From: Phyllosticta citribraziliensis
Lineage: Eukaryota
Reading direction: 5' to 3'
NCBI RefSeq assembly: GCF_038025025.1
Contig: NW_027117349.1
Coordinates: 1,240,001 to 1,304,000, forward strand
Length of the DNA stretch: 64,000 bases
Shown here: positions 1 through 32,986 of the stretch, piece by piece
How positions within the stretch are numbered: position 1 is the first letter of the stretch
Layout of the letters: every line of letters starts with the position of its first letter
Notes under the pieces: generated by a model
The model's database searches: none
What the model was told of the DNA's origin: nothing
Seen by the model: only the letters and a program-made list of their open reading frames with translations
Made by a program: the position numbers and the translations under genes

Positions 1-779
1 ATAAAGCTAAGTAAGAAGGGTATATAATAAGGTATAAGTTAAATTAGTAAGGAGTCTACTTAAAAGTATTAATTATAAAAAAATAAAGATAGCTATCTAT
101 AATATCTATATAATAAGGTCCTTTTATATTCTATTACCTAATCTACCTTAGAAATTATAATAGAAGGAAGGTAGGTACTATAAGAAGAGAGATCTTATCT
201 TAATCTTAAATTATATAGTAGTTTATTAGCTTATTAGTAATAATATACTTTTTAAAATTAACTACTTAGCTAATTCCCTACTATAGATATAGGAGGTTTT
301 ATTCTTATTTCTATTATTATATTAGTAATATATATATAGGTACTAGGATTAAATTATCTAAGTAGCTATAGCTCTTAGAGAGTTAGATAACTTTAGTATA
401 TATAGCTTATAGTTATAGCTAGTAGTTATAGTATAGGTATACCTAGTACTTAATACTAAGTAGTATTTAATATAATTATAGGTTTTTAGCTAACCTATAA
501 TATATAGCCTAGCTTCTAGTAGTAAAAGTAGTATAGCTATTAGCTATAAGTCTACTAATTAGTATAAGAGTTATTTAGGGTTTAATAGATAGTAAGTATA
601 GTTACTTCTCCCCCCTAGTACTTTAGTTTATTATAGGTAGTAAAATATAGGTTATTAAAATAAGGTATCTATATTTTATTATACTAATTTAAATACTTAT
701 TTATATACTATATAGGAAGATTATCTTATAGGTTAGTAAGAAAAAGTATATTAAGAATATTATCTAGTAGTTCCTACTA

Positions 780-2141: not shown

Positions 2142-4877
2142 TAAGTATAAGTAGTATATATCTACTTTTACTAGTAAAATATATTAATAAACTCCCTAGC
2201 TAAGGTAAATTTACTATATTAATAAAATAGGAAACTTTATAGGATATCTACTTTAAATAATAGACCCTTAGTACTAAGTATTCTAGTAAGTTAACTCTAG
2301 ATTAAGTAAGTATAATTATCTTTACTATTTAGGTAGATTATTAAATTATATAAGATAACTATACTAAACTAGTAGACTAATATATTATCTTTAGTAGTTT
2401 TAGCTAGAGTCTATAGTAGGTAATTAAGTAAGGATAAGTAATTAAATAGCTAAAGTCTTATCTTAATAAGCTACTACTACTTATCCTAGTTACTAGTATC
2501 TTTTAATAGTAGGATATTCTTAGAGGGTATACTAAAGGTCCTTTTAGTATTAAATAGAATACTTATTTTATTAATAATACTAGTATTACTATAAGTATTA
2601 CTTATATTACTAGTATTACTAGTATTAGTAGAGAGTTTAATAGAGGATTTACTAGCTAGAGAGTTACTAGGAGGTAAGATAGGTACTTTAGTACTTATAG
2701 TAGTAGTAAAGTAGTAAGATAAGAGAGAGTTATAGAGTTAACTATAAGATATTATTACTAGTAGGCTAATAAGAGATAAGATAGTATAGTTTAATAAACT
2801 TAATACTAGAGGATTATAAATAAAGAGAGAGTAGTATTTATATAAGGGCTTATAACCTAATTAAAGTAATTATATAAACTATTAATTTAACTATCTACTA
2901 AGCTATCTATTTTATAGAAAATACTAGATAGCTTACCTTACTAGGTATTACTATCTATAAATAGACCTCTGTAATATCATAGACTAGGCGCGCTAGTTGA
3001 GCAGGTTGCCTAATTTGACACTTATAGATGAGTTCGGTCATCGTAGAAGTATGATGCGTCTCATAATTGCTGGATGGTGCTGATTGAGCAAAGATTAGAG
3101 AATACAGAGAAACACACGCATCGTGCCGGTGTGAAATGCGCACCAGCCCATCCAGACGCAGTCAGCTTGCCGGGAAGGCCAGTCAGTCGTTCATGTGGTC
3201 AGTCTGGACTTCCCTGACTGAGCTGCGTCGGCTTGTCCATTGAACGCAGGATAGAAGATTGAGGATTGAGGCGCTCTTTATACCCGCAGCTTTCAAACCA
3301 CTTACAGTCAGCTCCCCGACACATCATTCATCATATGCAGACGAATCAAACAGCTCAGACCCTGGCTTTGCGTATAATGTGAAGAAGCGTCACCTGTCAA
3401 CGCACCTTTGACACGGCGCTCATGCTTGTGATTCAATCAAGGCGGCCGCCTGGGCTGCAGGGCGGTGCGGTATAAAACCCCCTTTGTCTCCAGCTAGACT
3501 TCGATCCTCAGACCTGCCGGCTGAGTTCCGCGCATCTTATTCGCCAAGGCTGAACAAAACACACTACTTTTACACTTGTTTTCGCCGCTTCTACCATGTT
3601 ATAAAACACTCTCGTGCGGTGCGGGCAGAGCTGAATTCTTGCTCTTTTGCTGTTTCGCTTTCTCTTGGAAAGAATTTGTTCGCTGGGAGAAGCAGCGGTT
3701 GTAATGATGGCAGAAAGTGTCATTGATTGGCGATGATGGTAGTCTCTAAGATCAAGCAATGACGCTCTTCGCTGCACTCATATGCTAAAAATATGACAAA
3801 AGGAACACGGGCAGGATAAATATCCCACAGAAAGAAAGGAGTACAAAAAGTGGTAATGTCGCGAAGAGTTTGGACCACAAAGAACAGTCAGAAGATGTTG
3901 ACATGGTGGAAACGACAGACAAGTAGCTGTGTATTGACATCTTGGTCGTCACTGACAAACTGTGTCGCGTCCTGCTCTGCCTCAACAGAACCGGGCAGCG
4001 AGACGTGCTTTTATACTCACTCACGACCGAGGGTCCACGCACTGCTGCCTAGCGCGGCTGCAGCCTGTGGGTGGTGTCAAGGCACATGCCGTGGTCGTGT
4101 CAGGGGAGGCGTGCGAGCGAGGCTTGTGACCCCTGACTCCTGACTTCTGACTTCTGACTCCTGGCTGCCCGCGGTTGGGTATATAAACGGACCTCTTTCT
4201 CGCTGCTGGAGCTACAGAAAAGCTTCTCCTTTAGCCTCTCCTACCGATTTCCCTGGAAATTTGCAATGCCACTGCTTGTCGCGCTTTCGTGGAGGATTTC
4301 ACTTTGGCCGAAGGGGCCAAAGGATTTCAATTCGGCTGTAGAGGCCAAAGAAGCTCAGCACGGTGCTGCTACCAGCAAATATTTATGGTGACGGGCAGCA
4401 TAACATCAGGATGAAGGAGAGCGATGTTGATAGCTGATCGCAATGGGATCCAGGAACCCCTGAGACTTCTGGTACCATTCTGGCCAGGGACGCAGCGCCG
4501 ACCGGGGCGGAATGGGAGACACAAAGGGACCTCTTTCTTACTCATGGAGAAGCCATCCACAAGCCGACGGGCAACCACTCCCAGTTTCAGTGCTGGGGAG
4601 GTTTGACTTACTTCGCCGTCGAGTGCTGCCGGAGGGTTTGTAATTTCGACAGCCTGAGTGAGTGCGCGGCATGAGGGAGTCCAACTGCTCAGATGCGCGC
4701 CATAAGAGAATGATGGAAATTTTCGAAGAAGGGAAGGATGAACAGCGGTGTCAAATATCAATGATGCCGTTGTCATTTAATTTTGTGCTTGCTCCAAACC
4801 CTCTACTCCAAGGTAAGCAGCTTTGAGTTTGGCCCGAGTGCATCGTAACTGGACTGGCCCTCTCTCCCACGGCGTGA

Positions 4878-7800
4878 CTATTCCGAGTCCGAGGCACCGG
4901 CGTCAATCAATAGCTGCGCGATATTTTCCTTCTCTTTTGCTACACAAAATGGGCCCCCCTGCAAACCCTCAAAGTCAGCATGCTGACAATCTCTCGAACA
5001 CTTGTGTCGCGAAGCCTTCAACGCCGAACCGTATTTGCCACCCTTCAAGCTCGGATCGGCGCCCTTCTCCAGCAAGAACTTGACGGCTTGCTCGTTGCCA
5101 CCGCTTGCCGCTGCCTGGAGTGCGGAGCCAAAGAATCCCCCTTGTGCGTCCACGTCGGCGCCGTTCTCGACGAGAAATTCTGCAATTTGAATATCACTTT
5201 CCTGCGGAATGTAACGGTCGGACCACACTCTACTGCTAATTACCGCCGTCAACGCACTGCCATAAAGCCCGGCGATGTGATTGACGTCTGCACCGGCCTC
5301 TATGAGGAGCTTTGCGGCCCCCAGCGCGCCCTTTCTCGCCGCAATGTGCAAAGCCGTCCCAAGTTCTGCGGCTTCGGGGTTCGGATCAGCACCAAAGTCG
5401 AGCAGGACTTTGACTTGATCTTCGCGATCGAACTTGGCGGCCTGGTACAGCGGGGCCTGGCCTTCTGCACTCTTCGCATTTGGATCGGCGCCGTACGTGA
5501 GAAGGACAGTCAAAGGGTCCTTCAACAGGGGTCTACGAGCGTTGGAAAGGAAATGGGTGCAAATAGGACCAACGTCGGTCTTCCGGGACAAGGGCTTGAG
5601 AAGGCTTTCGAGGCGCTGCGCCTTGTGCTCCGGGGACTCGTCGTCGTTGTCGTAGGAGTATCCGTCGTCGTAGAAACCGTGATCGTCGTAGTCGTCGTCG
5701 TCTGCGAACAACAGCGCAAGCGCGGCCTCAAACACTGGAGCATCGTGATCTATCTCGCGGAGGAGGAGCTGCATGGTTTCCAGGCTCTTGGAACTGGTTG
5801 CCCCTTTTAGTGCGTTGTCGTCGACCGTGTTGAAAGCTGCCATGTCCGGATTCAGACTCAAAAAGTACTCCACAACATGTTTCTGGCCTCTACTCGCGGC
5901 AAATTTTATGGCTCCGGCATAAGTCGAAGGCTCTGGGTGTGAGACTTTGGAAATGAGATACTTCACAATGTCCAACTTTCCCGCAGATGAGACTAGCTGC
6001 AGGATTTCTCGAAACAGCGGTGAATCAGCCTGGGGGATGATGCAAAGTCGACGGTCGAGAAGCTCTATAAGCTGGAGACTTCCTTCTGCAAAAATCATGG
6101 GAACAAAGAATTGCACCTTCTCTGCCAAAGGCGTCACGTCGGCTCCGGCTTCGACCAGAACACGAAGGACTTCCAATGCATCGCCAAGCCGGAGCTTTTC
6201 TTCCTCATCCATGTTGTACGTAGACCAGAGCTTTTCTTCTTCGTCCTCGTCAGATGATCCGCTGCTCTGCTCATCCAGGCGATCGAAATGGGCGGCAATG
6301 GCACTTGTAAGAGCAGCGTCACGAGACGCTGGGCTAGTGCCCTTGGCCAGAAGAGAAGCCACAGTCGAGGCTTCCCCTTGGTACGCAGCCTCTTCCAGCA
6401 AACTCCGGCCTGAAAAGACCAACTCACCAATGTTAGGGAAGTTCTGCATAACGGTCGCCAAGAATGGAATCGAACGCCGTTTGAGGGCATTCAAAATCAA
6501 GGGGCCGAAGATGTGGGCGCCAAAGCCGACGCTAGCACCTTCAGAGATGAGCATTGAGGAAATTTCCAGGTGCTCTTTCTTAGCGCTTTTCTCGGCGGTG
6601 CGCTCAAAAGTTCCACGTCGAACATAGCCCCATGGGTCTTTGCGGAATAGCTGGCGAGCAATGGAGGCATGGCCTCGCTTACACGCCGCAAAAAGCGCGT
6701 CTGTTGGATCGGGCTCCTCGTCACGAGTGAGTCGAAGAGGAAAGAGGTCATGACGAGAATGGATGTCGGCGCCTCTTTCGAGGAGAATTTGAACGACTTC
6801 CGTCTGGCCAGAGTAACTCGCCAGTTGCAGCGGACTGCCAAATCCTCCGTCTGCTGTTTCGATTTCCGCTCCTTCGTCCAAAAGGTACTTGACCATCTCT
6901 ACATGCATAGCGGCGACTGCGTTTTGCAGAGCTGTACCTCTTTGTTCTCCTGCGGCATTGACATTGGCGCCGTGTTGAATGAGAAACTTGACGATCTTCA
7001 GATTCCCTTGGCCTGCTGCGGCCTGCAGCGCGTTTCCGTTTTTCTTTCCCGGAGCGTCGATGCGGGCTCCATTCTCCAGAAGAAAACGCACAATCCGCAA
7101 GTGCCCGGTATCAGATGCAACTTGGATGGCATTTCCATGCATGCCACCAGTGTCTTCAATGTCGGCGCCATGTTCGAGGAGAAAGCGGACGACTTCCAGG
7201 TTATCTCTTTCGCAAAACACTTGCAGACACGAGCCGAATTGGCCCCAATGCTGATCGATTGGCGCGCCTCTTTCCAGAAGCAGCGATGCGATGTCGAGGC
7301 GCGAGCCTTCGAGCGCAGCCTGCAAAGGTGTACCAAGTGTCTGGCGCTTCGCACTGATGTTGGCTCCATTGTCGAGCAGGCATATCACTGCGTCGCGGTG
7401 GCCCCAGAAAGCGGCGATTTGCAAAGCAGTGTACGTGGAGCCTGAATCGTATCTGTTATAGGTTTCGTCATCATCTGCGGCGTCAATTTTGGCGCCCATG
7501 TCGATGAACTTTTGTATTAACTGAACATTTCCGTAACGCGCAGCCAGCTCAAGAGAACCAGAGTCGCCTGGACAATCGACTTGTTCGGTGCCATCATGAA
7601 TTTTAGGCAAAGTCCTGCGCACTTCTCGGGAAGGGAGGGAGTTCTCCATCACGTAGAATCTGTGTCTCGTGTCGACGGGAGCTCCCTTTTGAAGTAGCAA
7701 GTCCACAACATCGTCATTTCTCGCGTGGATTGCGGCTTGCAAAACACTTCGAAATCGACCAACCGCCTTTATGCTGGCCTTATTCTGCAGCAGAAGTTTG

Positions 7801-10800
7801 ATCGCCTCCTGGTGTCCTGCGTAGGCTGCAGCTTGCATGGTGCTTTTGAAAAACCCACCGTGACCATCGGGGTTCGCGCCGTGCTCCAAAAGGATGGACA
7901 TGGTAGATATGTGGTTTTTGGACGCTGCTGCTTGTAAAGCATCACCGAGCTCATCATCTTGGACGTTTGGATCGGCTCCTTGATCAAGAAGCCACACCAG
8001 AACATCGTCTTTGCCGGCGATCGCGGCTGCGCGGAGGGGATAGCCGAATCTCCCTCTCGAGCCGAGACTTGCTCCTTCTTGATGGACAAGCTGCACGAGG
8101 CTCAGCTTTCCGCCTGCTATCGCAGCTTGGAGAGCGTTGCCAAAATACCCCACTTCCGCATTGATGTCTGCATATCTTGCGAGAAGTCTTTTCGACTCTT
8201 TCTCCCTGCGGCCGTGGAGCGCTACCTGCAGTGGATCGTGGTTTTCGTGTGGTGCGTAGTCGCCGAGTTTGCCTTGCAACAGGTGCTCCACCAGCTGTGC
8301 ATGGCCTTTAAAGCCAGCAAACTGCAGAGCGTCGTTGAATTCGTCCTGAGTCGAGAATCTGAAGCCGCTACGAAGGAGTGCCTCGATGATGTCTTCGTGA
8401 CCGCCGGCCAAAGAAGCCTGCAACGGATTGGCAAAGTCGCCGGGGCCAAAGTCAGTCGCCGCATGATGATCTAGCAGCAGTTTGACGATGCTGCAATGAC
8501 CAAAGAACGCGGCGGCTTTGATGGCAGATCCGAATCGCCCACAGGCGGCGGAGACGTTGCATCCCAGACCAATCAGGCCTTTGACCACATCCTCATGCCC
8601 AAAGTGAGCTGCAAGGTATAGCCCACTAGCGTCGTGTTTGTTGAGAAGCTCCAGATCCTGCAGTAGACCGCGTTCGCTCAAATTTTGGAGCACCTCAGAT
8701 AGCCCGAAACAGCTAATTGTGAACAGGGGAGAAGGAGGTGAGCTCGATAATGCATTCAGCTTCTTGGTTAGATCGCCATGCCAGCGTACTTCTTGCGATT
8801 GGAGTTTGCCATCAACACTGTCGAGCCAATCTTCAAAATGTTCCTCTTTTGTGAAAAATTCCAGCAGCATTGCTTTCAGAACGGCATCTCGATGAGGCAC
8901 TCCGACGGCTTCGCAGTGGATAGGCCAGTAGACCGTTGCGTAGTCGACCAAGAGATCCTTGGAAGGTCCATCCCAGATGTAGGCGCCCAAGCATCTTCCC
9001 GTTACAGCTGAGTGCGTCTCAGTAGAGTCGAACTCTGGAAGCGATTCAAGATATCTGAAGATGTCGATTTTGGTGAGCAGAATTGACATGGCATGGAGGA
9101 GATTCACTTACTCTCTTACTGACGTATGCGACAAGCGAAGCACGTCTGATTCAGAATCCAGGACGACGAGGCCACAACAGCAATCGAGAAGCTCGGTTGT
9201 CGAAAATGCCTCGTCGGCTCGAATGCTCCTGGAGACTGCCGCAATCAGTTCCTCGACGGAGAGAGGTCTTTGAGCGCAAAGCAGCCATTTAAGGACCAAT
9301 GTGGTGACAGTCTTGGCCGTCTGCTCCAAGGAAGTAATGCGAGCGTAAACGGCATCGAACGATTTGATCAGGCCCGCAGGGAGATGGCGCAGCGCAGCGC
9401 GTACATCTTCGTCGAGCTTTATCCGCTCGGTGTCGCGGATAGTCTCAAGTTGCAGAGTGACCCACAGGAACCTGAGACATGTAAGAACAGCGCAAGGGAG
9501 TCGCCGAAGTCTCCAGACACTGACACTTACATTCCTTGCGCTCCGGCCTCCAAAGCAGAGATGATATCGTTCTCGAGCTGGCCGAGTTTGTGAGCCTCTT
9601 TGCCCGGCTTTTGCCCCCATTCCGTGATGAAGTCTTTGGCCTTGGACTTGATGAATCTGCCGAGATCTTCGTGGTTCTGTTTCGCGGTTACGGAGATTTC
9701 CTGTGACTGGCCAAGTCGCATTTTGATGTCATCTTCCTCGCGGCTGCTCACGAGGATTTTAACAAGATCTCTAGATTTTGCAACAATCTCCTCACACGCC
9801 GACATGATCAGTCCTCGCTGCTGAGAGTCGCATTCGTCGAGTCCGTCGATAACTATTGTAGCCGGGGTTGCGGCAGTGAGTTGAAGAATGAGCTCCACAG
9901 ATTCTTCCTTCGTCAAAGGCGACGCATCAAGGCCATTCTTCTTTCCATCTTCGACCTTGTTCTTGTACTTGTTGACTGTTACTCCCGCGATTTGGCCGTC
10001 GGTCTTGGACACGGATAGCTGCTTCACGATGGCCCGCAAGATTTCTTCGCAGTTGGCTCGCTGAGGCTCTGCAGTATCTCGACAGCAGTAGAAGTACGCG
10101 ATTGGCGCAGCTTGCGGAACATACGCTCGCTGTTTCTCCAGATCTTCAATCATTACAGCCCTGAGATTGTCAGAAATTTCTTGATCATGCAGTAAACTTG
10201 ATGCAACTCACGCAAGGCGACTCTTGCCGCAACCCCCTGACCAATGTTGTGAGCATCTGTCCCCACCATTAATGATAGATCTTACATGTTCCATGAAGCC
10301 ACAGGATCTCGGAGGAGCTTGAGGACTTCCAAGATGCATATTCGGGATTTGTGAGGAGCCACTCTCCCGTATTTGGCAATATTCCTGAAATCATCGCTTC
10401 GTGATGCTTGCGGAAGTCTATGGCAGACAGCCACTTGAGAAGATCGCTCCTCTCCGATGCTGGAAGATGTCAGCGAAATACAGTCATGGATCCGTCATTG
10501 TACCTTCGAGTGCATTATGCAACCGTCCAATCTGACCTTCAATTCGAACAAAGGGGGTCTCCAAGTCCTTCAGCGCCTGCTGGAGAATCTTTTGTGTTAC
10601 TGCTTCTGGATTAGCAAATCTCGTAGCACAAGGATGAAACAGTCCATGCCTTGGAGTTCGTCAACTTTGACAGTCATCGTTCCGAAAGATGCTTTGTTGG
10701 ACTCGGTAATGGTCAAGGTTGCTGTCGTTCGTTCGGCATCGATGAGTTCTCTCTGGTACCTCACTTTCTGATCTCCTTCGGAAACGTCTTTGAGCGCATC

Positions 10801-21915: not shown

Positions 21916-23070
21916 TCAGCCGGACCTGCGGCAAAGTCGTTTGCTCTGCGGAACTGCAAGACTTTCCTCCTCGACTTTGTCGTTGCAGTCGTGGTCGTCG
22001 TCAGAGTCCTCCTCTAGGTCGCACAATGCCGTAAATGGCCTTTTGGATCCCATCGCCCTGCTATTATGTACCAGCGACACCTTCTTCCGCGACCTCTCCC
22101 AGAATACCAGATCATCTTGGACGACGCAAAGCAGCGACTCTCCACTCCAAGTCTCCTCGCGAAACCAGCCCGCGATCCAGTCTATGGGTACGAGCTGCCT
22201 GTAGTACCCGCCGGCCTGTTTCTTACCGACTTCCTCTGCCCACGTATTCCATACCAGATGGCCAGGCGGACAAAGCTTCTGATCGCACGCCAGAATGACG
22301 CCGCCAAACGCCTCCGACTCCCAACTCCAGCCCAACTCGCAGTCGGGGTCATCGATATGGAACCACTCTTCCGGCTGCAGAAAGCCCCGCCGCATGGCGG
22401 CGAAGCAGTGCGTCAGCTCGTGCACAATGGTGGCTGCAAAGGAGAACGAGAACCTCAGTTGCTCCTCCAGGGATGCGTCGACGAAACCCTCTTCGGCAAA
22501 GTACCGATACTGGTCGTGCAAAAAGACCTGGCAGGCGTTGCGCGGTCCCGACGCGGCGAATAGAGGATGCAGGGGCTGCGGCTCGTGGTCGTTGAGGAGG
22601 GTGGTTCGCGCGTATGAGAAGTCGCCTTTGCCGGTCCAAACGTCAAATGTCCAAAGAACGAGCGTTGACAAGCTATCGATTGCGTCGCTGGTAAGTTGCT
22701 CCTGTCTCTCAGTATAGTTTCCGGTCTTCTCGAGATAATTCTCCGCCTCGCCTTTTCTGTTCTTTTGCTTCAAGACCCGTTTTCCGTACCCTACGTGCAC
22801 CCACCAATGGAGGAGATGTTTTGCCTTCAAAAGGCGGCTGGCAAGACGCAACCCTAGATTGAGGTTACGGTAAGCCTTCTTCGAAAGCATGGGAAAGTTC
22901 TTGTGCTTAAATACGGGGTGGATCTCTCCAGAGAGATTCGGCAAGAGATGGGGGCTGACCTTTACAAGGCCTCGGAGGGAGGGATCGTTCCTGATGGCTT
23001 CTTTGACGAGTCCGGGAATGGGCCAGGGCCTTTGCGCTTTCTGGTTTGCGTCCAAGCATGATCGATCCAT
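21916..23070 (-). CDS. Hypothetical zincin-like metalloprotein (HExxH)
   Basis: 384-aa ATG ORF. ATIVHELTHCF is followed ~20 aa later by ELGWSWESEAFGG (candidate third ligand Glu). No evident signal peptide. Confidence 0.75.
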   Translation of the reverse strand: MDRSCLDANQKAQRPWPIPGLVKEAIRNDPSLRGLVKVSPHLLPNLSGEIHPVFKHKNFPMLSKKAYRNLNLGLRLASRLLKAKHLLHWWVHVGYGKRVLKQKNRKGEAENYLEKTGNYTERQEQLTSDAIDSLSTLVLWTFDVWTGKGDFSYARTTLLNDHEPQPLHPLFAASGPRNACQVFLHDQYRYFAEEGFVDASLEEQLRFSFSFAATIVHELTHCFAAMRRGFLQPEEWFHIDDPDCELGWSWESEAFGGVILACDQKLCPPGHLVWNTWAEEVGKKQAGGYYRQLVPIDWIAGWFREETWSGESLLCVVQDDLVFWERSRKKVSLVHNSRAMGSKRPFTALCDLEEDSDDDHDCNDKVEEESLAVPQSKRLCRRSG

Positions 23071-24011
23071 TTTGTCGACTTACCTCACAGGACCTGCCTG
23101 TAGCTGTGTTGTGGATGGAGCGAAGTGAAGGCGAAAAAAGTTGACAAAGAGAGAAATATGCAAGCGATGGACAAGCGCCTGGCTCGGTGAGTTTTGCCTT
23201 CTGTAAAGACAAGGCACTGCCGCGTTGATATACGTCAAGGGTTTGAGAGTCCCTTTGTCCGCATTGTTCATGATGTTTCTGCATTGTTCAAAGCTCTCAA
23301 AGGACGAGCAACAAAGGATGGAAGGCTGAAAAAATTGTCGGTGTCAAAGAAGAACAATGTCCCCTCGGAATCTTGTGAGTTGAGCGCTGAAACTGGTAGT
23401 CCTTAGCTCCAATATCGGCGTCGAAGAGTGGCAAAGAAGACCGTTGGTAGCCCCTCTGGTAGGTTGACTTCCAATTCTTTACAAATCGGACCTCGAAGAA
23501 CTTCCTGTCGTCGATTGAGCATCTTCTGGTCAAGATTGCAGCGCCGCCGGCCAAGGCCGTCTCGATATCGTCGCTTGTCCCAAGGAGAGTGTTTTGCAAA
23601 TTCCGCATTGCGCCGTCGGTATCGAAATGTCCAGGAAGACGCGTTAGCAAAAGACACAGTCGATTGGACCAGTATATTGTGGATAGGACGGTGTCGCTAT
23701 GCAATCTCCAGACAGAGAACAATGGATTGGTGTTCCTTTGTCGTGTCACGGCGTCTCCCTCTCAGGAACAGCGCGGAAGCTTTGGCCTCCTGTTAAGCGA
23801 GATCCGGGACCTCCTCCGTCCTCCTCCTCCCGGAACCTCAACCAAGACTCTCCGCTCCGCACCTCCTCGTCTGACCCGGTACACTATGTCCACTGCCTGC
23901 CAACGCATCGCCCTGCTGATTTTTGGCACGCAATTGGCTCAAGCCTGACAGACTTATCGTGGCTGTCGCCGCTGGCCCTGCTGGTGCTGCTGGCGCCATT
24001 GACTGACTGTC

Positions 24012-24101
24012 TGGGCTCTTCGCCTTTGCCGACGGCAGCGTCAGAAATGGTTGGATGGGCTCTTCGCCTTCTTAGCCGACGGCAACATCAGAAATGGTTG
24101 G
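24012..24101. repeat. Two-copy tandem duplication (43 and 46 nt)
   Basis: tgggctcttcgcctt(t/ctta)gccgacggca(gcg/aca)tcagaaatggttgg at 24012-24054 and 24056-24101. Confidence 0.9.
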
Positions 24102-24675
24102 CTGAGCACACTTGGCCCCTTCCGAGCCCGCCTGTTATCAACAACAGTGGGAGTTTTGCTTATGCCACCGACTACTCCTCCGCTGATTGGCTTTTTCAGA
24201 AGCCGAGCGAGGCTTTGTGTCATTCAGATCAAGTGGAGAGAGAGCCTTGTCCATCAAGTGAGGCAGGAAGAGAACTGTGTGTCGTTGAGAGCAGTCTGCA
24301 CTTGACCTGCGGCATAGTGTCGTATGTCGTGGTTTCATGAAGACAACGCGGCAGCACCATCGACTTCATAGACTGCTCGGGCGGGCACTGGTGAATGAGA
24401 GACATCGAACGAGAGGGTGAGGGGGATGCGGCTACATTCGTAATATGCCCGCGCACGAGGCTGCGTTTCGTGTCCTGCCTGCGCCCACCTCCCCCTCCAT
24501 TGCTTTTGCTTGACCAATCCGCCACAAAACTCCAGCTAGTACTTTTTGCTCATTTTGAGTCCTCCTGTGTTCCAATACCTCCTCTTTGTCTGCTTGCTGA
24601 TCAGGGAGAGGACCACAAGCTCGAAACTTGACCATCCATCTGAATCCGCCCGACCAGTTTGATACTGCTGCGGAA

Positions 24676-25607
24676 ATGTCGTTATCACCCACCGCCATAC
24701 ACCACCCTCTCCCTTCGCAATCATACCCCTCGAACACCACGGCTTCTCATCAAGTTCATGAGAATGAACACACGATCCTTGACGACGAAGGAAGCGGACA
24801 AGCAGATGAAGACGATGCCTCGATGGCTGCTGAGGGTCAAATCCGGCTCGCTCCCCCTTCTGAGCACAGCGAACCTGAGGATGACGTGCCATTCTCCGCG
24901 GAAGACTTCAAGAGAAAGCTCAATGTGATTGCGACCGACCGCAATGGAAACGAGCACCTCGTTCCAGCCGTTGGTTTGTACGACTCGGGCAGTGAATCTA
25001 TCAACATCATCAGCAGCCAACTGGCCAGGAGACTGAACATTGAGCCTGAAAAACCAACCTGTCCGCCTCGGGGTTTGGGCAGAATCTCATCAAAGCTCAA
25101 GATGGGAAAAGGCAAGGTGATCGAAGATGTCCGTAGCGTAGACGGTGCTCGTGTCCGTCACCAGCAGAGCCCAGTCTTCGTGCAGTGGCAATGTCTCGAC
25201 TCCAGTCCCCGCCTGCACCAGCATCTTTTCTTCGATCCCAAGACATATCGCACCAAGCACATTGTCGTCGAAAATGCTGCAGCGGATCTCATCTTCTCAC
25301 GCCGCACTTGGCTCGAAGAAAAATTGACAGAGCCGTCTGTCTGCATGGTCCAACGGATGATCGGCGAAAAATCTAAGCCGAGTACAGGTATGTCCGCTCT
25401 ACAACATACGCCCAGGCTGGGTTTCTCTTGCTAATATGGACCGTCGCAGATCAACAGGGTGCGCAAAAAGATCGGGATGAAAGGGCCAGGGTCATGAAGA
25501 AGCGGAACGAAGAAATGGAAAAAAGGGTCAAGAGCCAGGGGCTCCAACCGAAAAGCGGACAGTCCACAAGCAACGGCAGTCAAGGTGGATCTTCAGCTGC
25601 ACCTTGA
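24676..25607 (+). CDS. Stand-alone retropepsin-like aspartic protease 1 (DSG)
   Basis: Exons 24676-25387 and 25450-25607 (GTATGT...GCTAAT...CAG). Acidic disordered N-terminus, GLYDSGSESINIISSQLA, flap-like VRSVDG, HIVVENAAADLIFS, then a charged helical tail. Confidence 0.8.
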
Positions 25608-27665
25608 AACTTCCGTTCAGTTGTCAAGTGTTTAGGAATCCCTTTGTCCGTATCCTTCGTGACGTTTTTCCATTGTTCAAAGACCTGTCAAGGGACAGGC
25701 GACGAAGGCTGCCGTCAACCGTGGACAAATGGCTCAGGAATTGAAGAGGGTCGATGTACCAGATCTTCAGAGTAAGTTTGTTGCGATTTGAACCGCAGAA
25801 ACTCTTTCTCCTTATGGCCATAGTCCCCAAGAGCGCATCTTTGAAAGTACCGGAGCCGATATTCAGTGCTCTGCAGATGGGACTCAATGGCTTTGTTTAG
25901 TCAAAAGTGCCTGCTTCAAGTTGAGATCTCTTCTGCTCATTGTTTGAAGTGATCGATTTCCCGGCGGTGCCCGTCGACTCAAGGCGAATTCAAGTCTTTT
26001 GTGTTGAAAGCATCACGTTGTTGAAGAAATTCGTGGGGATCCAGCTCGGTGATAAGCGGATAAGGGCGACGCACGATATTGTCTTCAGGCTCTCATCACG
26101 GGAACGGAGGACAGGGTCAGGCTGCATGGTCCGGGGCCAATCAATGCGCGGAGGACCTGACAGCCTGCGTAGTCCGTCCTCGCCACTCTCCGGGCCATTC
26201 CATCTCGTTTGCTACGTGTTAACGGGCAGGCAAGTGACGGGGCTGATTGCCCTTCGCTGAGCTGTCAACGAATGAGTGGTTCCCGCCAGCGACTCCTCGT
26301 TCGAGTATTCTCTTGGTCAAGCCAAAAGCCTCTCGCCACCGCTAAGCGCCGGCGGCGCCCTCGTACACTGTCAGATAGCTGGGTTTGTTCCTCAACACCT
26401 AGTATTTCTATGCTAGCTATCACGAACATGCGCTGACGTCATGAAGATACAAATGGACAATCCAATGCTTGTACTTGCTAGGAGCTTGCCAGCAGCAGCA
26501 AAGCTGAGCACGATATTCAGAGTCACTTCCGCGAACTCTTTCTATACTGCTGGGGCCTCGACTGGATGTGCGTCGGCCGCCATGCGCAATTCCATAAATG
26601 CTCAGCCACCGTCCCAGGCCGGCGCGATATGTGAGGTCATTGATGAGATCCAAAGCTGCGAGGTCCCTTGGAAATGCAAAAGCGACGGGTCATTGAGCCG
26701 CCCTGCAACCTGACTGAGAGGATACGGTGTGGCCTACAGTCTCCTCAACCTCAACTGGACAAGGTCTAGACTCCGGAAAATGGACCATCTGCACACTTCT
26801 TAATCGTCAAGAAGAACCTGTGACGGATGCAGGACGGGGAGGCTGACGCCCGGTTGGCCAATACCATCTGCCCTGTCCGGTTTTCTGCACCGCCTCGCCT
26901 CTACGCCTCCAGACTGGCCAGTCTGATATGCATTGGCCTACCCTGCTCCGCTTGCCGTATGTCCTCACCACCGGCGCCGCCTTTGTTCTTCGACTGCTCG
27001 TCATCCACCTACACCCGCCGACCCTCGGGGTCTCTCCGCCAGAGACCAACTCCTCGACCTTTTTCTCTCCCCTCCCACCTCCTTGCTCGGTCCTCCCTCT
27101 TTGCCTTGCCTTGCCTTCCTATCCTTTGAATAAGAGTCAGCGCACTCGTTCAAGCAACGTTTCTGCAGCCTCGACAGTCCGTCAAGCTTTGTGTCCATCG
27201 CCCTGAACTGTTCCTGGGCGCCCCTCCTGTCTCGACAAGATTGAGAAGGGCGTCCATCTTCGTCCACATAGAAGCGTTGTATTCGTCACTCCTCGACTTG
27301 GTAACACGGTCAAAGGCTCGCGGTACGTTCTTATAGCTGCGGCGTCCCTGCAGCGTCATATCCTCCACAACCAGGTCACCAAAAGCTGATATGCAAGTCC
27401 GAGGTAGAGATCCACCAGCGCAGTACACTGTCTGCCTCCCTTCCACACCAAGGCTCGTCCTCCTCGGAACATTCGCAGGTACTCTCTTCCCATTCTCAGC
27501 ACCCCGGAGCGTATGTATTCTCGCTCTGCTCCTCGCTACCTGGCGATAGCCTCGCCTAAAACGTTTCTCAGTCTTGCCGGTTAGGTTGCGAAGCAGATCG
27601 ACCTTGTGCTAATAAGACTGAGCTTCTAGAAAGCACAATAGACGACTCTACGAAATTCCTCCACC

Positions 27666-28622
27666 ATGAATGCTTGCAACAACCCACCAAACCCCGCTGC
27701 CCCACCTCATGATGATGGTTGCCTTGGAAGTCAGGCTTCCTCCGCCCCGGCCATTCCATCAACACCCACCTACCCTCCAGACTCGACGGCTCCACAAATT
27801 GAAAGTAGTCTTTTGGTGTTGGACCATCTCGGGAACGGTCCTCCAGGCTTAGGGGATGTGACCCTGCACACTGTTTTAGCTGGTGCGCAGGGTGACTCTT
27901 CAGGACCTGGCAGCGCCGACGCTGTTGTCTCGACACAGGGATCGAGGCTCCCAACAGAAGATTACCGTAGACCCATCCTTGTGGTCAAAAAAGATGGCAA
28001 TGGCAACGAGGATTTGAAACTATTCTTCGCTCTTTTTGATACGGGATCGAGTGACGTCAACCTCATCAGCGCCAAACTTGTCAAATATCTGGAGCTTGAG
28101 ATGCGTGACCGTTCTCGTTGGTCTCGGATCTTGGACGTACTCTTCCCCTGGAGAAAGAAGTCTCAACTGTGCAACACAGACGGAACATCTATCCATCAAG
28201 AGGGCAAGGTGAAGATACGCTGGTATTGCCGCGACCAGACGGTGTATGACAAACAAGCCCTTTGGTTCACCCCGGGGTTCTACGTCACCGAACACTTTGT
28301 CGTCGAAAATGCCACGGCCGATGTGCTCCTCTCGCTCTCTACGTGGGATGAGCTCGGCCTGAGGGACCGCCCCATCTCCATGATCACGAGGAAGCCTCAG
28401 CCTGACATGAGTACGTTCGCCGTGCAGTGAATGTGGGTTGATTCAAGACTGACGACTGTCACAGGCAAAGGAAATCTCCAAAAGGTCGCGGCTGACAAGG
28501 CCATGCAGACTGAAACACGGATTGGGAAGAAGTCCAAGATTGCCGCCGCAACGATGGAGGCATACAGGGCAAAGAAGGCAGCTAAGTACTCCTCCTCTTC
28601 TTCAAACGGCAATGGGGCTTGA
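27666..28622 (+). CDS. Stand-alone retropepsin-like aspartic protease 2 (DTG), paralog of 24676-25607
   Basis: CCACCATG start. Exons 27666-28410 and 28465-28622 (GTACGT...CTGAC...CAG). ALFDTGSSDVNLISAKLV, CNTDG, GKVKIRW and HFVVENATADVLLS. Same phase-1 intron position as paralog 1. Confidence 0.82.
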
Positions 28623-29443
28623 TCCTGCGAATTTCCGCCCGTGGAAAGGCCTGTCCGCAAAGAGCTGCTGTCAGTTATTGGTGGTACCGGTAGAAGTCCC
28701 CATCGACGAGTTTCTTTCCTTTCTGCTATCTGAGGAGAAGTACCTTCGACAAGGTGGCTGATGTTACTGTGATAGCATCTGATGCCACCGAGAGGATGGA
28801 AAATGGTGCTGTGCTCTTTCAAAGTTCCAATGTTCTTACTTAACAAAGTCTTTGTGTGTTAAATTTGGGAGCGAGACGTAATTAGTGAAGCACGCAAGTC
28901 TGTTATTTGTTAGCTTCATGGCTAGATTTACTTTGTTTTCTTGCTTACCTGGAATTCGAATGCGTCTTCTCTTCCTATCCAGCACCGTCGATCCTTCATG
29001 AGGACAAAGATGCAGACTGTCGTAAGTTTTCCCAAACGTGATCTGAGACTGTGGTGAGGGCGATGCAGGGTATGTGTAAAGAATCTTTGGGGAGACTGAC
29101 CTTTTAGTAGATCGGTGATGGAAAGAATGCCTTCTTCCAGGCTTCCATCCTACCCAGCTGCCTAGATGAGGCGAGTGTGTCTTGTGGCTCACATGTAGGA
29201 GTCATACGGCAAAGGCTTGACTCGACACGTGAGATCATCTGCCTCTCGATACGACAGCAAGTGGTGAGACTGACTTTGCCGCAAGTTTTCGCCAGAGAAC
29301 ATGGAACTCAATCACGAGTCGCAAATTTCAGACGTGTTGTGGTCATTCTAGTCCTCGATCAGTAAATGCTATCAAATATACCGTGTATCTGAACAGTTGT
29401 ATAATTACAGCGTACATTAAGAGTGATTGTTTGGTCCAACAGG

Positions 29444-30013
29444 TCATGCTCGTCCTGGAGCTCGCACCCTGAACCCCTTCTCATATCCAGAGATCATACG
29501 AACAGGCTGTGACGCAGGAGTAGAATAGCACCTCGAGTCGATGAGTCCATAGTCTAATGCAGCTCTTCTCCCGAGGACTATGTCGAATCGTGGGTTTCCC
29601 TGTTGCACGACCAGGAAGCGTGTGCGGAAAGTCGGTCGTGACTTGATGAGTCCCCAATCGAGGTCGACGTATCCTTTGGTTCTGATCTTTCGACCGTAGA
29701 AGTCGATGTCGCTCTCATATTCTTGAATCTCTAGGCCCAAAAGCTCTACAACAACGGGCATGGATATGAGACTTGCATCCAAGTCGAGAGGAGGACACCA
29801 TAGCGTGAGGACTGTTGATGTTCTCCGTCCGCTTTCGAGTGTGAGGAAGATCCATACGGTCTGCTGCTCAGATTTCAACTATTGATCCAACCTTGATGTC
29901 AGCCCTGGAAAAGAAATAGAAAGATGGGAGACAAAGTAGAGGGATACAACATTTATATTTCGTTCGTGACGGCTGCTAGACAATTTAAGGCCTTTTAGGA
30001 ACTTGGAGCACAT
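29444..30013 (-). CDS. Retropepsin-fold protein lacking the canonical D[TS]G motif (putative pseudo-protease)
   Basis: Probable exons 30013-29948 and 29878-29444 (GTATCC...CTGAC...TAG, phase 0). SLISMPVVVELLGL, IRTKGYVDLDW, TRFLVV and FDIVLG match the retropepsin pattern. LDLDAS occupies the catalytic position. Confidence 0.6.
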
Positions 30014-32006
30014 TACTTCCACCGTTGTGCTGCGTTGGAAGTAAATCAACGATGGGAGGGAGGACCGATTATATCGCAGATCGCAGAAGCTGAGACCCGG
30101 GAGGCCTCCCATAAAAGCGACGAAGAATGAGGCTCTGCGTGCACTCGTGCGCTGCTGATCAATATGCCGAGTGGCATAGCCAGCCGGCCAGGTTCGCATC
30201 CGAGGCGGCAGGGCGCCAGGCAATGAGCCTCTAAGACGAGCCTCGAGGCCCAGTTGGTATCCAAGAAAAGGTAGACGCAGTGGCTTTCGCCGTCATCCAA
30301 TCACTTGGACCCCAATCACAGGTATTCGCTGGAACTGTAACATGCAGTCTGGACAACCCTGTCGTGTACCAACTGTGGAATGGCATTGAGCCCCGTAGCT
30401 TCCGAGAATTGGTTGGGGGCTTTGCTGCCAGAAACGCATATCATCTGGCGGTTAGCATCATTTGCCCCAAGATCGCCGGGATTACGAATCTGAACAACAG
30501 CCCGTGGCTGAGCATGGGCTCCTGTCGCCGGTCAGAAGCTCGTTTCCAAATGGCACAGCATGCATAGAAGTGGCACCAAATATCAAGTCGCTAGGATACA
30601 CCGGTATGCTGCCGGTTGATGAGAAGCTTGATGAAAAACGACCCTTGTAAGCCCCTGTACGCGCTGAACGTTCTTCAAATTGGAGTTGTACGAAGATTCC
30701 GCTGCATGGGTATCCCAAAGTCTCATTCCTCACATAGAAAAAAGTTCGAATTCGAGGCCGTTGAGCCTGCGTCGTTCGAGGTCATTTTCAGCCCCTTCAT
30801 TTTCAGAGTCCGCATGTCGAACTAGCCTCATCAATGCTGGCCAGCGGTTGTTACCGAACTTCGGGTGTCAATGCCCAAAAACGGGAAATGCGCCTGGGGG
30901 CAAGGCTGATCGATCCGTGAGGTACGGCTGACCTGGCAGTGCATGCATTCCCCGTGCTAGGCGAGTCTTTCGAATGATGATTCGTTGGATCCGACAGCAG
31001 ACGCTCGAGGTGGAGGGTGGGCCCCACGTGCGATTCGTTGGCTTTCAGCCCCCGCTACGCTGTTTTGCCACGAACGCCCGCAAATAGCCCTATCCACACC
31101 ATCTCCATTCTGATGGTCAGATGTGACGTCTGCAGGTGAGCAAACTAGACTTACATGGTGCCAACTCCGCGTTCCCGGTAAATTCTTGCTCAGATATCAT
31201 GTTTGGAGACGGTCGTTCGTCCGGCTCTTGAAGTGACAGTGTTTTGGAAGCTAGGGGGGGACTTCGGTTGGATTCAGGAGACTGGATGGAACAGCCGCGG
31301 AGACATCATTTGCGCAAGTCAGGCTGAGCTTGATCCCAGCAAACCGGAGCACGCAGAATTCGAGCCTGGTAGCGCTGACGGAGGTTGGAGGCGTCAGCAG
31401 GCGCAGTCCTATGCACAGTTATCACCCGCGTATGATGGCAGACCACTTAAGTGGGTGACGTACTCGCATTTCGGCCTCGCCATTTCGAGTGGATGTAACG
31501 TGGCCATTTCTTGTCGACGAACTCTGATATTCCTCAAATGATGTATGTCTGCGAGTATCAAGAGAAGCGATGCCTGAGGTGGCTGAAATCGCAGGTAGAG
31601 ATTTGCACAGAATGTCTTGTGCGAAACAGATGATGGAGACTGAATATTCCATCATTTCCGCGATATCATCGACTCGTTACCAGGCTAAGAAAGACGTCCT
31701 GAGCGGGGAAAATCTGACCCGGAGGCATCGTCTGTTTGTGCATCATGCGCAGTGCTGATGGAAGCATTCTGCATTTTGAATGCCGAACAGTTCGGAGCAG
31801 AGCCTCAGCCTGATACCCAACTGCTCCATTTCCTTTTGACCATGTCTTATTTAGTCGCGGGGGTATCGGCGTCGAATTGGAGAAGGAAGCCTTCATTTCG
31901 CGTTCGAGATAGCAAACTAACTGGGCGCTCTTCTTTCCCGAAAGTGGAGAACACATCTTCGTGGCATGCATTGAGCCTGTGACGGAAACCCTGGACACGT
32001 CGAATC

Positions 32007-32986
32007 ATGAGCACTGCGGCATCAACCACCGCGGCCTCAACCACGCCATCCAATGATCTTCCTGCAGGCTACCCGAGGCTGGCAGCAAGAATGGGCCTCC
32101 AGCCCGAACTCGCAATATTCAGGAGATTCGGGTTTCTAAACAAGTTGAACATCTTGTGCTTGCAAGCCGAGTTAGCCGCAATCGAAGAAGACCTCAAGCT
32201 TCTACTCTGCACTCAGAGTCAAGTCTCTTCTGAAAGCCTTCTGCGGGATTGGGGTACCGCGAGAAAATCAGCCGACGAGAGAGAGGATGACGGTCGAGAT
32301 CCACGGCTGAATTTGATCCTTGCTGCTGGAGAAAAACTTGAAAAGTACAGTGAGTCTGCCTGAAACCGGTTTGAGCTTGGGTCAGACTTACAAGTTGTGT
32401 CGCTACAGATGCTGCAGTTGTCCAACAGTCCAGAATGCTTGCTATGGATCCACCGAAAAAAAATGATTTGGATTACATCCAAAGGTTCATAGGAGACGAG
32501 AGCCAAATGGGCTTCCCACATCCTTTCTCGGGAGCAGATTCAGAAATATGGGGTTCAATAGAAAGCCCCAAAGGTCACGCCAATGATATCATAACCCCAT
32601 ATCCTTATCGCCAAAAGGATATGTTCTCGAAACTAGTAAAGAAGAAGTTTTTCGACTTTGGCTTCGATAGGGTCTGGCGGAGTTGCAAGATCGGCGATCT
32701 CGAATTTTGGGACGAGAAGGTCATCGACCGAATGACGTCTATGGTAAGCACGGCGCTTGCGTCGATTCTTCCTATTATTTCCATCATCATTCTTTACTAC
32801 GTCGAATCGATGGAGGCCAAGTTCGGAATTATGGCGGTATTCAATATCCTTATATCCGTATGTCTCGGTCTTCTCACTCACGCCAAAAGAAGCGAGATAT
32901 TTGCGGTGACGGCGGCATTCTCCGCCATACAGGTCGTGTTTGTGCAGGCAGGAGATGCGACACAGGCAAATCCAGCGGGGTCATGA
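32007..32986 (+). CDS. DUF6594-family protein with three C-terminal hydrophobic segments
   Basis: Exons 32007-32349 and 32409-32986. GYPRLAARM...IFRRFGFLNKLNILCLQAEL, LEKYNAAV, and C-terminal hydrophobic segments ending RSEIFAVTAAFSAIQVVFV. Confidence 0.88.

What the first reader, a model, noticed from the sequence alone, without database searches (positions are those of the whole stretch)
24676..28622. Tandem, intron-bearing, stand-alone retropepsin paralogs (domesticated retroviral-type proteases)
Seen: both have a disordered N-terminal region (~75-95 aa), then D.NGNE.L, L[YF]D[ST]GS...N.IS..L, DG, W.C.D, F.P..Y.T.H.VVENA.AD...S..TW.E..L. A phase-1 intron sits at the same place and leads to a Lys/Arg/Ala-rich helical tail with SNG near the end. 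No gag, RT, integrase or LTR is nearby and there is no RIP signature, so they read as host genes. Both have Ser where retropepsins usually have Gly in the D-h-h-G motif. Known: retropepsins act as dimers with one Asp per monomer; DDI1 and ASPRV1 are domesticated examples. Inference: an old duplication of an uncharacterised family, possibly a heterodimer with a pro-segment and a dimerisation tail.
Basis: partly seen in the sequence, partly recalled or inferred. Interest (0 to 1): 0.75.

Follow-up and report, generated by a model that had tools for sequence, protein, structure and literature searches.

The report
Fungal retropepsin–DUF6594 gene cassette
The two retrovirus-type protease genes are real host genes, but they belong to a larger cassette, with a third crippled protease-like gene and a membrane protein of unknown function, that recurs in many fungi and in some varies the way self/non-self recognition genes do.

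Summary
Observation confirmed: two spliced, intact, non-transposon retropepsin-fold genes (A, B; about 36% identical over the domain) in a Phyllosticta genome. They are not stand-alone. Next to them lie a third, Asp-less retropepsin-like gene (C) and, head-to-head with C, a three-helix DUF6594 membrane-protein gene. The same layout recurs on another contig. Relatives of A/B share a contig or neighbouring accession with DUF6594 in 10 of 20 clusters looked up. In metagenome DUF6594 loci, 40 retropepsin ORFs lie within 4 kb and 2 farther out. At one locus in another fungus, seven contigs with 91-100% identical flanks carry two deep cassette haplogroups (A/B-type 25-31%, C-type 39-40%, DUF6594 67-70% identical), as at allorecognition loci. 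Best reading (0.45): a protease-gated membrane-effector cassette for non-self recognition, with A/B as variable trigger and C as matched inhibitor. Cleavage, binding and cell death are untested. Many relatives lack the full catalytic motif, and no polymorphism was seen at this very locus. No paper in the library names DUF6594.

The parts
24676..25387 (+). Gene A exon 1: 76-aa low-complexity N-terminus and retropepsin domain; catalytic Asp103 (codon 24982-24984) in D-S-G
   Evidence: Pfam Asp_protease_2 only sub-threshold, E 0.15
25388..25449 (+). Gene A phase-1 intron, GT..AG, 62 nt
   Evidence: joined in 3 of 4 runs laid
25450..25607 (+). Gene A exon 2: Lys/Arg/Glu-rich tail and stop
   Evidence: same tail in P0003 and P0030
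27666..28410 (+). Gene B exon 1: 97-aa N-terminus and retropepsin domain; catalytic Asp125 (codon 28038-28040) in D-T-G
   Evidence: Pfam Asp_protease_2 E 0.0098, sub-threshold
28113..28166 (+). Basic amphipathic helix inserted before the flap of B (similar in A and in most close relatives); candidate membrane-surface anchor (inferred)
   Evidence: helix 54-62 of the model; hydrophobic moment at or above the 94th percentile of each protein and net charge +3 to +12 in 14 of 14 proteins examined
28411..28464 (+). Gene B phase-1 intron, GT..AG, 54 nt
   Evidence: joined in 1 of 4 runs; orthologue models agree
28465..28622 (+). Gene B exon 2: Lys/Arg/Ala-rich tail and stop
29444..29878 (-). Gene C exon 2: small retropepsin-like domain without D[TS]G (Pro in the catalytic column), second motif D-I-V-L-G-R intact; no charged tail
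   Evidence: C-family vs A/B-family profiles, hhalign probability 98.6, E 1.4e-15; Atlas features 0.92 with aspartyl-protease clusters
29879..29950 (-). Gene C intron, 72 nt, GT..AG on the minus strand
   Evidence: joined in 3 of 4 runs, and a variant joint in the fourth
29951..30013 (-). Gene C exon 1 from the likely ATG at 30013 (165-aa protein)
   Evidence: frame-breaking indels in a relative lie upstream of 30013
28520..29443 (-). Multi-intron 3' untranslated region of C, running antisense up to the end of B; left limit approximate
   Evidence: minus-strand joints at 28650-28743, 28900-28948, 29043-29100, 29216-29274, 29348-29415
32007..32986 (+). DUF6594 (PF20237) gene, head-to-head with C; two exons (donor at 32350, predicted); three hydrophobic helices at the C-terminus
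   Evidence: Pfam E 7.7e-16 and 4e-28; hydropathy peaks at 234, 262 and 287 of P0046; outside the stretch laid with reads

Best explanation
A and B are the variable protease components of a fungal cassette of three gene types: tailed retropepsin(s), a small degenerate retropepsin (C) and a DUF6594 membrane protein. SHOWN: the genes, their splicing, the fold of B, the conserved linkage, and deep cassette haplogroups in another fungus. INFERRED mechanism: A or B dimerises as retropepsins do, sits on a membrane through its basic amphipathic helix, and can clip the cytosolic N-terminal helical part of DUF6594, switching the three-helix membrane domain on. C is placed head-to-head with DUF6594 and pairs with the matched A/B-type monomer into an incomplete active site, which keeps the cassette off in self. 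When hyphae with different haplotypes fuse, an unmatched protease meets DUF6594 and the cell is damaged or walled off (heterokaryon-incompatibility-like). Step odds: functional unit 0.9; role in non-self recognition or defence 0.6; cleavage as the switch at this locus 0.55.
For: Same layout on contig C11: the tailed ORF scores E 1.3e-13 to the A/B profile, the small ORF is 39% identical to C, and DUF6594 lies beyond. 10 of 20 A/B-family clusters looked up share a contig length or a nearby accession with a DUF6594 protein, e.g. KAK8246260/61, KAK8225373/74/76, BFW01_g11796/11798, BOTSDO02499/02500/02502. In 80 metagenome DUF6594 loci, profiles built without them find 40 ORFs within 4 kb (410,667 nt) against 2 farther out (222,738 nt); 9 of 15 long-flank clusters. 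With second-round profiles, which are circular, 11 of 15, and 8 of 15 have both a head-to-head C-type and an A/B-type gene. Haplogroups at one locus (7 contigs): flanks 91-100% identical, reaching 97-100% away from the cassette in some pairs. Between groups DUF6594 is 67-70%, C-type 39-40% and A/B-type 25-31% identical; within groups A/B-type is the most variable part (47-100%, against 87-100% for C and 88-100% for DUF6594). One P. capitalensis DUF6594 groups with this genome's rather than with the other P. capitalensis one (98/92). A and B keep D[TS]G, as do 21 of 24 close rows; Asp in 40 of 41 rows. Precedent: about 80% of fungal gasdermins have a protease gene within 10 kb and HET-Q1 is activated by cleavage (PMC8851545, passages); divergent allelic groups mark het loci (PMC4540973, abstract).
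Against: No cleavage, binding or toxicity is shown. D[TS]G is present in only 4 of 17 rows taken from loci, and the C11 tailed gene has N-P-E, so cutting cannot be universal. C-type genes keep the Asp in 16 of 17 metagenome rows, which fits a working half-site as well as an inhibitor. At this locus no second haplotype was seen: the listed pieces of two runs of the same organism show no other letters, and a relative carries A and B colinearly. The haplogroup contigs are metagenomic and could be sister species or paralogues; the two P. capitalensis sets are not shown to be allelic. The scan pattern was drawn from the cassette-linked DUF6594 subclade and only 80 of 219 relatives were kept. 4 of 6 DUF6594 loci of this genome have no retropepsin nearby. 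Six loci carry a Cys-rich head-to-head partner and no retropepsin. DUF6594 vs A/B-type distances correlate weakly (Mantel 0.34, p 0.058, n 10).
Confidence: 0.45

Rival explanations
1. Same cassette and same recognition role, but no cutting: A/B-type and C-type retropepsin folds form a lock-and-key heterodimer or peptide-binding cleft that holds DUF6594 shut, and an allele mismatch releases it.
For: 13 of 17 locus rows lack D[TS]G; the C11 cassette is intact although neither gene has the motif; D-T-G in only 1 of 19 C rows. C and A/B-type distances correlate (Mantel 0.45, p 0.006). A non-protease Cys-rich partner replaces the retropepsins in one DUF6594 clade that shows the same haplotype pattern.
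Against: Asp is kept in 40 of 41 A/B-type rows, and the full motif in A, B and 21 of 24 close rows. A caspase-like ORF lies by the C1 DUF6594 (weak hit, E 0.0057), which suggests proteolysis is the common theme.
Confidence: 0.22
2. Poison-antidote (selfish or meiotic-drive-like) cassette: DUF6594 is the poison, the head-to-head gene C its antidote, and A/B process or remove one of them.
For: The C-DUF6594 head-to-head pair is the steadiest link (Mantel 0.61, p 0.006). The cassette sits among different housekeeping genes in different genomes. Haplotypes replace each other as blocks.
Against: No transposon traces or RIP around it. The fastest-varying part is the A/B type, not the supposed poison-antidote pair. 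No meiotic data.
Confidence: 0.12
3. Regulated processing for signalling or housekeeping, like DDI2 cutting NRF1: the proteases mature or release a piece of the membrane protein with no role in non-self recognition.
For: Nearest solved fold is the Ddi1 protease domain. DDI2 cleaves NRF1 (PMC7369636, abstract). The genes are transcribed and spliced.
Against: No UBL or UBA domain; the true Ddi1 lies on another contig. Deep haplogroups between near-identical flanks are not expected of housekeeping genes.
Confidence: 0.12
4. One reading: A and B are free-standing domesticated proteases that act as an A:B heterodimer with pro-segments, unrelated to their neighbours.
For: The duplication is old and tandem copies recur (P. 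capitalensis, B. dothidea, L056). Both keep D[TS]G.
Against: Linkage to C-type and DUF6594 genes across many fungi. Most loci have a single A/B-type gene. N-termini are not conserved.
Confidence: 0.06
5. Remnant of an LTR retrotransposon protease with no present function.
For: Retropepsin fold; a RIP-decayed reverse transcriptase lies about 28 kb away.
Against: Intact spliced genes, a conserved intron, 95-97% domain identity to orthologues with more change in the termini, negative RIP index, no LTR-length repeat.
Confidence: 0.02

Closest known systems
Fungal gasdermin-protease clusters (het-Q1/het-Q2 of Podospora anserina; PMC8851545, passages seen)
   Same: A membrane-acting protein gene clustered within 10 kb of a protease gene; the protease class is exchangeable; a link to allorecognition.
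   Different: The effector here is DUF6594 (three predicted C-terminal helices), not a gasdermin. The protease is a clan AA aspartic fold, not S8 or CHAT. A third, degenerate protease-fold gene takes part. Cleavage and cell death are shown there and only inferred here.
Ddi1/DDI2 retroviral-protease-like domain (PMC7369636, abstract seen)
   Same: Best structural match (Z 10.4, rmsd 2.6, 96 aligned, 17% identity); single-domain host retropepsin.
   Different: No UBL or UBA; a basic amphipathic insertion and a charged tail; Ser in the second motif; the genome's Ddi1 is a separate gene.
Ty1/Copia (MEROPS A11) and retroviral (A2) proteases (PMC2642776, passages seen)
   Same: D[TS]G motif and fold; the ILS-type second motif is the Copia norm.
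   Different: No gag, reverse transcriptase, integrase or LTR; conserved intron; no sequence evidence of descent from Copia, since relatives outside Botryosphaeriales keep Gly (17 of 17 locus rows).
het/allorecognition loci with divergent haplogroups (Neurospora het-e; PMC4540973, abstract seen)
   Same: Deep allelic groups between near-identical flanks, with a sign of recombination (L059 and L060 have identical cassettes but left flanks of 94-96%).
   Different: No HET domain hit in any cassette gene; the pattern was seen in another fungus's metagenome contigs, not at this locus; no incompatibility test.

Membership tests
Clan AA single-domain aspartic peptidases (retropepsins): genes A and B | D-[TS]-G catalytic motif | tested here: met
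   DSG in A, DTG in B
Clan AA single-domain aspartic peptidases (retropepsins): genes A and B | Retropepsin fold | tested here: met
   B model pLDDT 86; all listed Foldseek rows are retropepsins; the six VIA matches at Z 8 or more are all retropepsins. A was not modelled (36% to B).
Clan AA single-domain aspartic peptidases (retropepsins): genes A and B | Hydrophobic-hydrophobic-Gly psi-loop motif (PMC11313796, passages) | tested here: inconclusive
   Ser, not Gly; ILS is a known variant in Ty1/Copia proteases; 23 of 41 family rows have Gly
Clan AA single-domain aspartic peptidases (retropepsins): genes A and B | Dimer with one Asp from each chain | not testable with these tools
Clan AA single-domain aspartic peptidases (retropepsins): genes A and B | Proteolytic activity | not testable with these tools
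   Needs an assay
Clan AA single-domain aspartic peptidases (retropepsins): gene C | D-[TS]-G catalytic motif | tested here: not met
   Pro in the catalytic column
Clan AA single-domain aspartic peptidases (retropepsins): gene C | Retropepsin fold | tested here: inconclusive
   Model pLDDT 57; Foldseek unclear; VIA top three are retroviral proteases, Z 6.0 (rmsd 3.5, 107 aligned) to 5.4; profile homology to the A/B family is clear
Ddi1/DDI2 | UBL and UBA domains around the protease domain | tested here: not met
   No such Pfam hit in exon 1 of A or B; the orthologue is at G000:C4:1237605
LTR retrotransposon polyprotein | gag, RT, integrase and LTRs around the protease | tested here: not met
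   No RT in the window, 0 of 78 matches; no long direct repeat; spliced genes. gag and integrase profiles were not searched separately.
Gasdermin-protease cluster | Effector is a gasdermin | tested here: not met
   Pfam gives DUF6594 and no gasdermin family; no PDB sequence match; fold not predicted
Gasdermin-protease cluster | Protease gene within 10 kb of the membrane effector | tested here: met
   B ends 3.4 kb and A ends 6.4 kb from the DUF6594 start; recurring linkage
Gasdermin-protease cluster | Cleavage releases a cytotoxic fragment | not testable with these tools
   Needs co-expression
het/allorecognition locus | Deeply diverged haplogroups at one locus | tested here: inconclusive
   Met for homologous cassettes in metagenome contigs; not seen at this locus in the two runs of the same organism
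het/allorecognition locus | Cell death or growth arrest on co-expression of unlike alleles | not testable with these tools
   Needs heterokaryon tests

The most novel reading that the evidence does not exclude
DUF6594 is a widespread, so far unstudied fungal cell-death or cell-sealing membrane effector that is controlled by exchangeable neighbours. In this branch the control is a heteromeric retropepsin switch: a fast-varying tailed aspartic protease and a matched pseudo-protease subunit encode self identity, and a mismatch activates the effector. I found no report of an aspartic-protease-gated allorecognition system in the searches made.
Probability: 0.35. Interest if true: 0.9.

Novelty: new variant of a known kind. 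Interest (0 to 1): 0.74.

Why it matters
If right, it gives a function to an orphan fungal family (DUF6594: 0 papers) and adds a new effector and a third protease class to fungal regulated cell death, beside gasdermins with S8 or CHAT proteases. It names candidate vegetative-incompatibility loci in Botryosphaeriales, a group with many plant pathogens and endophytes; such loci limit the spread of mycoviruses (recalled). The parts are small and can be tested directly in yeast. A natural retropepsin/pseudo-retropepsin pair would also be a living model of the step from homodimeric retropepsins to two-lobed pepsins.

Tried and rejected
Pfam and NCBIfam do not name A, B or C above threshold. PDB sequence searches gave nothing relevant. 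Word-index homologue searches found only 2 close orthologues each; the HMMER library search found 27. The structure of C stayed low-confidence. Contig depth over C is far above that over A and B, but contig depth cannot rank genes, so it is not used. No run was on record as RNA; I rely on the GT..AG joints only. The upstream HExxH-bearing ORF (21919-23079) has no match in the 80 loci and was dropped from the cassette. Conserved SNG and pro-segment were rejected. NLR or HET context: ankyrin genes lie near 3 of the metagenome cassette loci scanned (L040, L045, L094) and an NPHP3_N/ankyrin gene lies about 14.5 kb from A; no HET domain was hit and there is no background rate, so this is not used. 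Reading tail exons across the intron gave charged tails in 5 of 8 loci tried and unclear frames in 3. In one search one wrong ORF entered the C profile; it was replaced. Paper searches: DUF6594, PF20237 and DUF6590 gave 0 papers; one search gave 0; searches listed nothing on this cassette; supplied background. Most subscription papers are not in the library, and no supplementary files were read; DUF6594 may appear in supplementary tables.
Full report
1. Observation. A runs from ATG 24676 over a 62-nt phase-1 intron (25388-25449) to 25607 (289 aa). B runs from ATG 27666 over a 54-nt phase-1 intron (28411-28464) to 28622 (300 aa). They align at 29% over 217 aa (E 3e-27) and about 36% over the domain. 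In the own genome (31.35 Mb, 22 contigs) each finds only itself and the other. The nearest named proteins are hypothetical proteins of Phyllosticta citrichinensis and P. citribraziliensis (88-92%). Contigs of four runs were laid on 23900-30900: the A intron is joined in 3 of 4 and the B intron in 1 of 4, with unspliced contigs in two others. None of the 12 indels listed for a related organism falls in the coding parts of A, B or C (13 more were not shown). The RIP index is negative over all cassette parts and +1.48 over the AT-rich block at the window start. None of 78 reverse-transcriptase matches lies in the window, and no LTR-length repeat was found.

2. The proteins. B's domain, modelled with 24 rows, has pLDDT 86. 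All listed Foldseek rows are retropepsins, and the wide search ranks Ddi1 first (Z 10.4, rmsd 2.6, 96 aligned), then retroviral and foamy-virus proteases. Pfam matches stay below threshold. The genome's real Ddi1 is a separate gene. A has D-S-G and B has D-T-G. The Ser in the second motif recurs in 11 of 24 close rows and is absent from 17 of 17 rows taken from loci; Ty1/Copia proteases usually have ILS there (PMC2642776, passage), so it does not mark a dead enzyme. Close relatives carry a basic amphipathic insertion before the flap (14 of 14 examined); some family members lack it. The library search gave 27 proteins. I looked up 20; the named ones come from Phyllosticta, Diplodia, Lasiodiplodia, Botryosphaeria and Zopfia. 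A-type and B-type both occur in one P. capitalensis assembly, so the duplication is old. A phase-1 donor lies 25-37 codons after the second motif in 16 of 20 rows; 4 rows had no donor matching my pattern. This points to an old host family; descent from a retroelement is neither shown nor excluded.

3. On the minus strand, converging on B, lies gene C (ATG 30013, intron 29879-29950, stop at 29444; 165 aa). Its intron is joined in 3 of 4 runs and its multi-intron 3' end runs antisense into the end of B. Its family is homologous to the A/B family (hhalign 98.6%, E 1.4e-15), but C has Pro in the catalytic column. Its own model is poor (pLDDT 57), with retroviral proteases on top only at Z 5.4-6.0. 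Head-to-head with C lies a DUF6594 gene (32007-32986) with three hydrophobic peaks near the C-terminus. Contig C11 repeats the order: a tailed A/B-like ORF, a small C-like ORF and DUF6594; neither retropepsin-like gene there has D[TS]G. The other 4 of 6 DUF6594 loci of the genome have no retropepsin in the 30 kb fetched around each; one has a weak caspase-like neighbour.

4. Conservation of the linkage. A profile of the two cassette DUF6594 exons gave 83 proteins; I looked up 10. Of the 20 A/B-family clusters looked up, 10 share an exact contig length or a nearby accession with a DUF6594 protein: contigs of 34,727, 28,086, 11,415 and 5,939 nt; KAK8246260/61; KAK8225373/74/76; BFW01_g11796/11798; BOTSDO02499/02500/02502; and SLS58_004588/004597, the weakest. 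Four lie on contigs under 2.2 kb and six show no match. A metagenome scan with one pattern from this DUF6594 subclade found 219 relatives and kept 80 loci, 52 clusters at 80% identity. Profiles built without these loci found 40 retropepsin ORFs within 4 kb of DUF6594 (410,667 nt) and 2 farther out (222,738 nt), in 29 of 80 loci, 16 of 52 clusters and 9 of 15 clusters with long flanks. Second-round profiles, which are circular, give 40 of 80 loci and 11 of 15 clusters, 8 of 15 with both gene types; reversed ORFs and non-cassette own DNA gave no hit. The usual order there is C-type head-to-head upstream and A/B-type convergent downstream; Phyllosticta has the A/B-type beyond C. Some loci have a single head-to-head retropepsin, and six, forming one clade, have a small Cys-rich gene instead. 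Across 10 trio loci, distances correlate for DUF6594-C (0.61, p 0.006) and C-A/B (0.45, p 0.006) and weakly for DUF6594-A/B (0.34, p 0.058); linkage alone can give this.

5. Haplotypes. Seven metagenome contigs (L046, L058, L059, L060, L062, L064, L069) share flanks. The left flank gene is 91.6-96.2% identical and the right flank 91.1-100% (six contigs in each comparison), reaching 97-100% away from the cassette in some pairs. Between the flanks, about 7 kb are unalignable between two groups apart from short stretches at about 70%, mainly over DUF6594. Between groups, protein identity is 67-70% for DUF6594, 39-40% for C-type and 25-31% for A/B-type; within groups 88-100%, 87-100% and 47-100%. 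L059 and L060 have identical cassettes but left flanks of 94-96%. The Cys-partner locus shows the same pattern (flank 93.5-100%, DUF6594 groups 59-64%). Two other locus pairs (L033/L036, L045/L049) show no such drop. In P. capitalensis two assemblies hold DUF6594 proteins only 54% alike (157 of 289), and one groups with this genome's (98/92); whether they are alleles is not shown. At the window's own locus, the listed pieces of two runs of the same organism show no other letters. The metagenome contigs could be sister species or paralogues.

6. Mechanism. The unit is the cassette (0.9). Deep haplogroups with the protease-fold gene as the most variable part are what het loci show (PMC4540973, abstract; PMC10197012, passages), so non-self recognition or defence is the likeliest role (0.6). 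For this locus I favour cleavage, because A, B and 21 of 24 close rows keep D[TS]G and the Asp is kept in 40 of 41 rows, and because protease-effector clusters are the rule for fungal gasdermins (PMC8851545, passages). Dimerisation with one Asp per chain and the role of the D- and G-loops follow from the family (PMC11313796, passages). Membrane binding by the insertion, cutting of the DUF6594 N-terminus and inhibition by C are inference; trans-dominant inhibition by Asp-less subunits of HIV protease is recalled, not looked up. Against a universal cut: D[TS]G in only 4 of 17 locus rows, the motif-less C11 cassette, and the Cys-rich partners. The binding-only, poison-antidote and DDI2-like rivals remain open.

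7. Novelty. The library holds no paper with DUF6594, PF20237 or DUF6590, and the other searches listed nothing on this cassette; subscription papers and supplements were not covered. A review of fungal immunity has no occurrence of 'aspart' or 'DUF'. Earlier notes of this scan describe DUF6594 beside retropepsins, retropepsin fusions or caspase-like proteases on other DNA and once in this genome; I had the cassette reading before I opened them. A and B are new members of clan AA by motif and fold. The cassette works like, but is not, a gasdermin-protease cluster. Verdict: new variant of a known kind, interest 0.74.

Noticed in passing
G000:C11:1307137-1311295 (L006, L009): Second complete cassette in this genome with open frames, although neither retropepsin-like gene has D[TS]G.
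   Followed up: partly
window 21919-23079, minus strand: 387-aa ORF with an HExxH (zincin-like) motif and no Pfam or NCBIfam hit above threshold, 1.6 kb upstream of A; no match in the 80 metagenome loci.
   Followed up: partly
window 23234-23320 and 25623-25711: 89-nt, 78% identical copy of the 3' untranslated region of A, 2.39 kb upstream (E 7e-13); perhaps the trace of a further tandem copy.
   Followed up: partly
window 28520-29443: The 3' untranslated region of gene C has at least five introns with alternative joints and overlaps the 3' end of B in antisense.
   Followed up: no
window 26382-27629: Three plus-strand GT..AG joints upstream of the B start in one run (long spliced leader); contigs run continuously from A into this region.
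   Followed up: no
L047, L063, L065, L074, L079, L084 (about 1.3-2 kb upstream of DUF6594, minus strand): Small Cys-rich, zinc-finger-like ORFs head-to-head with one clade of DUF6594 in place of a retropepsin; this locus also has divergent haplotypes between 93-94% identical flanks.
   Followed up: partly
L047:6859-7419, L079:5522-6082, L063:1407-2033: A second DUF6594 gene about 3-4 kb from the first in these loci; L040 and L056 are two cassettes on one 45-kb contig.
   Followed up: no
L024:4985-6010 (G000:C1): Caspase-like ORF about 2 kb from another DUF6594 gene of this genome (weak NCBIfam hit, E 0.0057).
   Followed up: partly
window 4881-10207, minus strand: NPHP3_N plus long ankyrin-repeat gene (NLR-like) beside the RIP-marked AT-rich block at 1-3600, about 14.5 kb from A.
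   Followed up: no
window 24024-24107: Two 37-nt copies 47 nt apart upstream of A; a related organism lacks 61 nt here.
   Followed up: no
whole genome: 76 of 78 reverse-transcriptase matches carry in-frame TAA or TAG stops, consistent with strong RIP.
   Followed up: no
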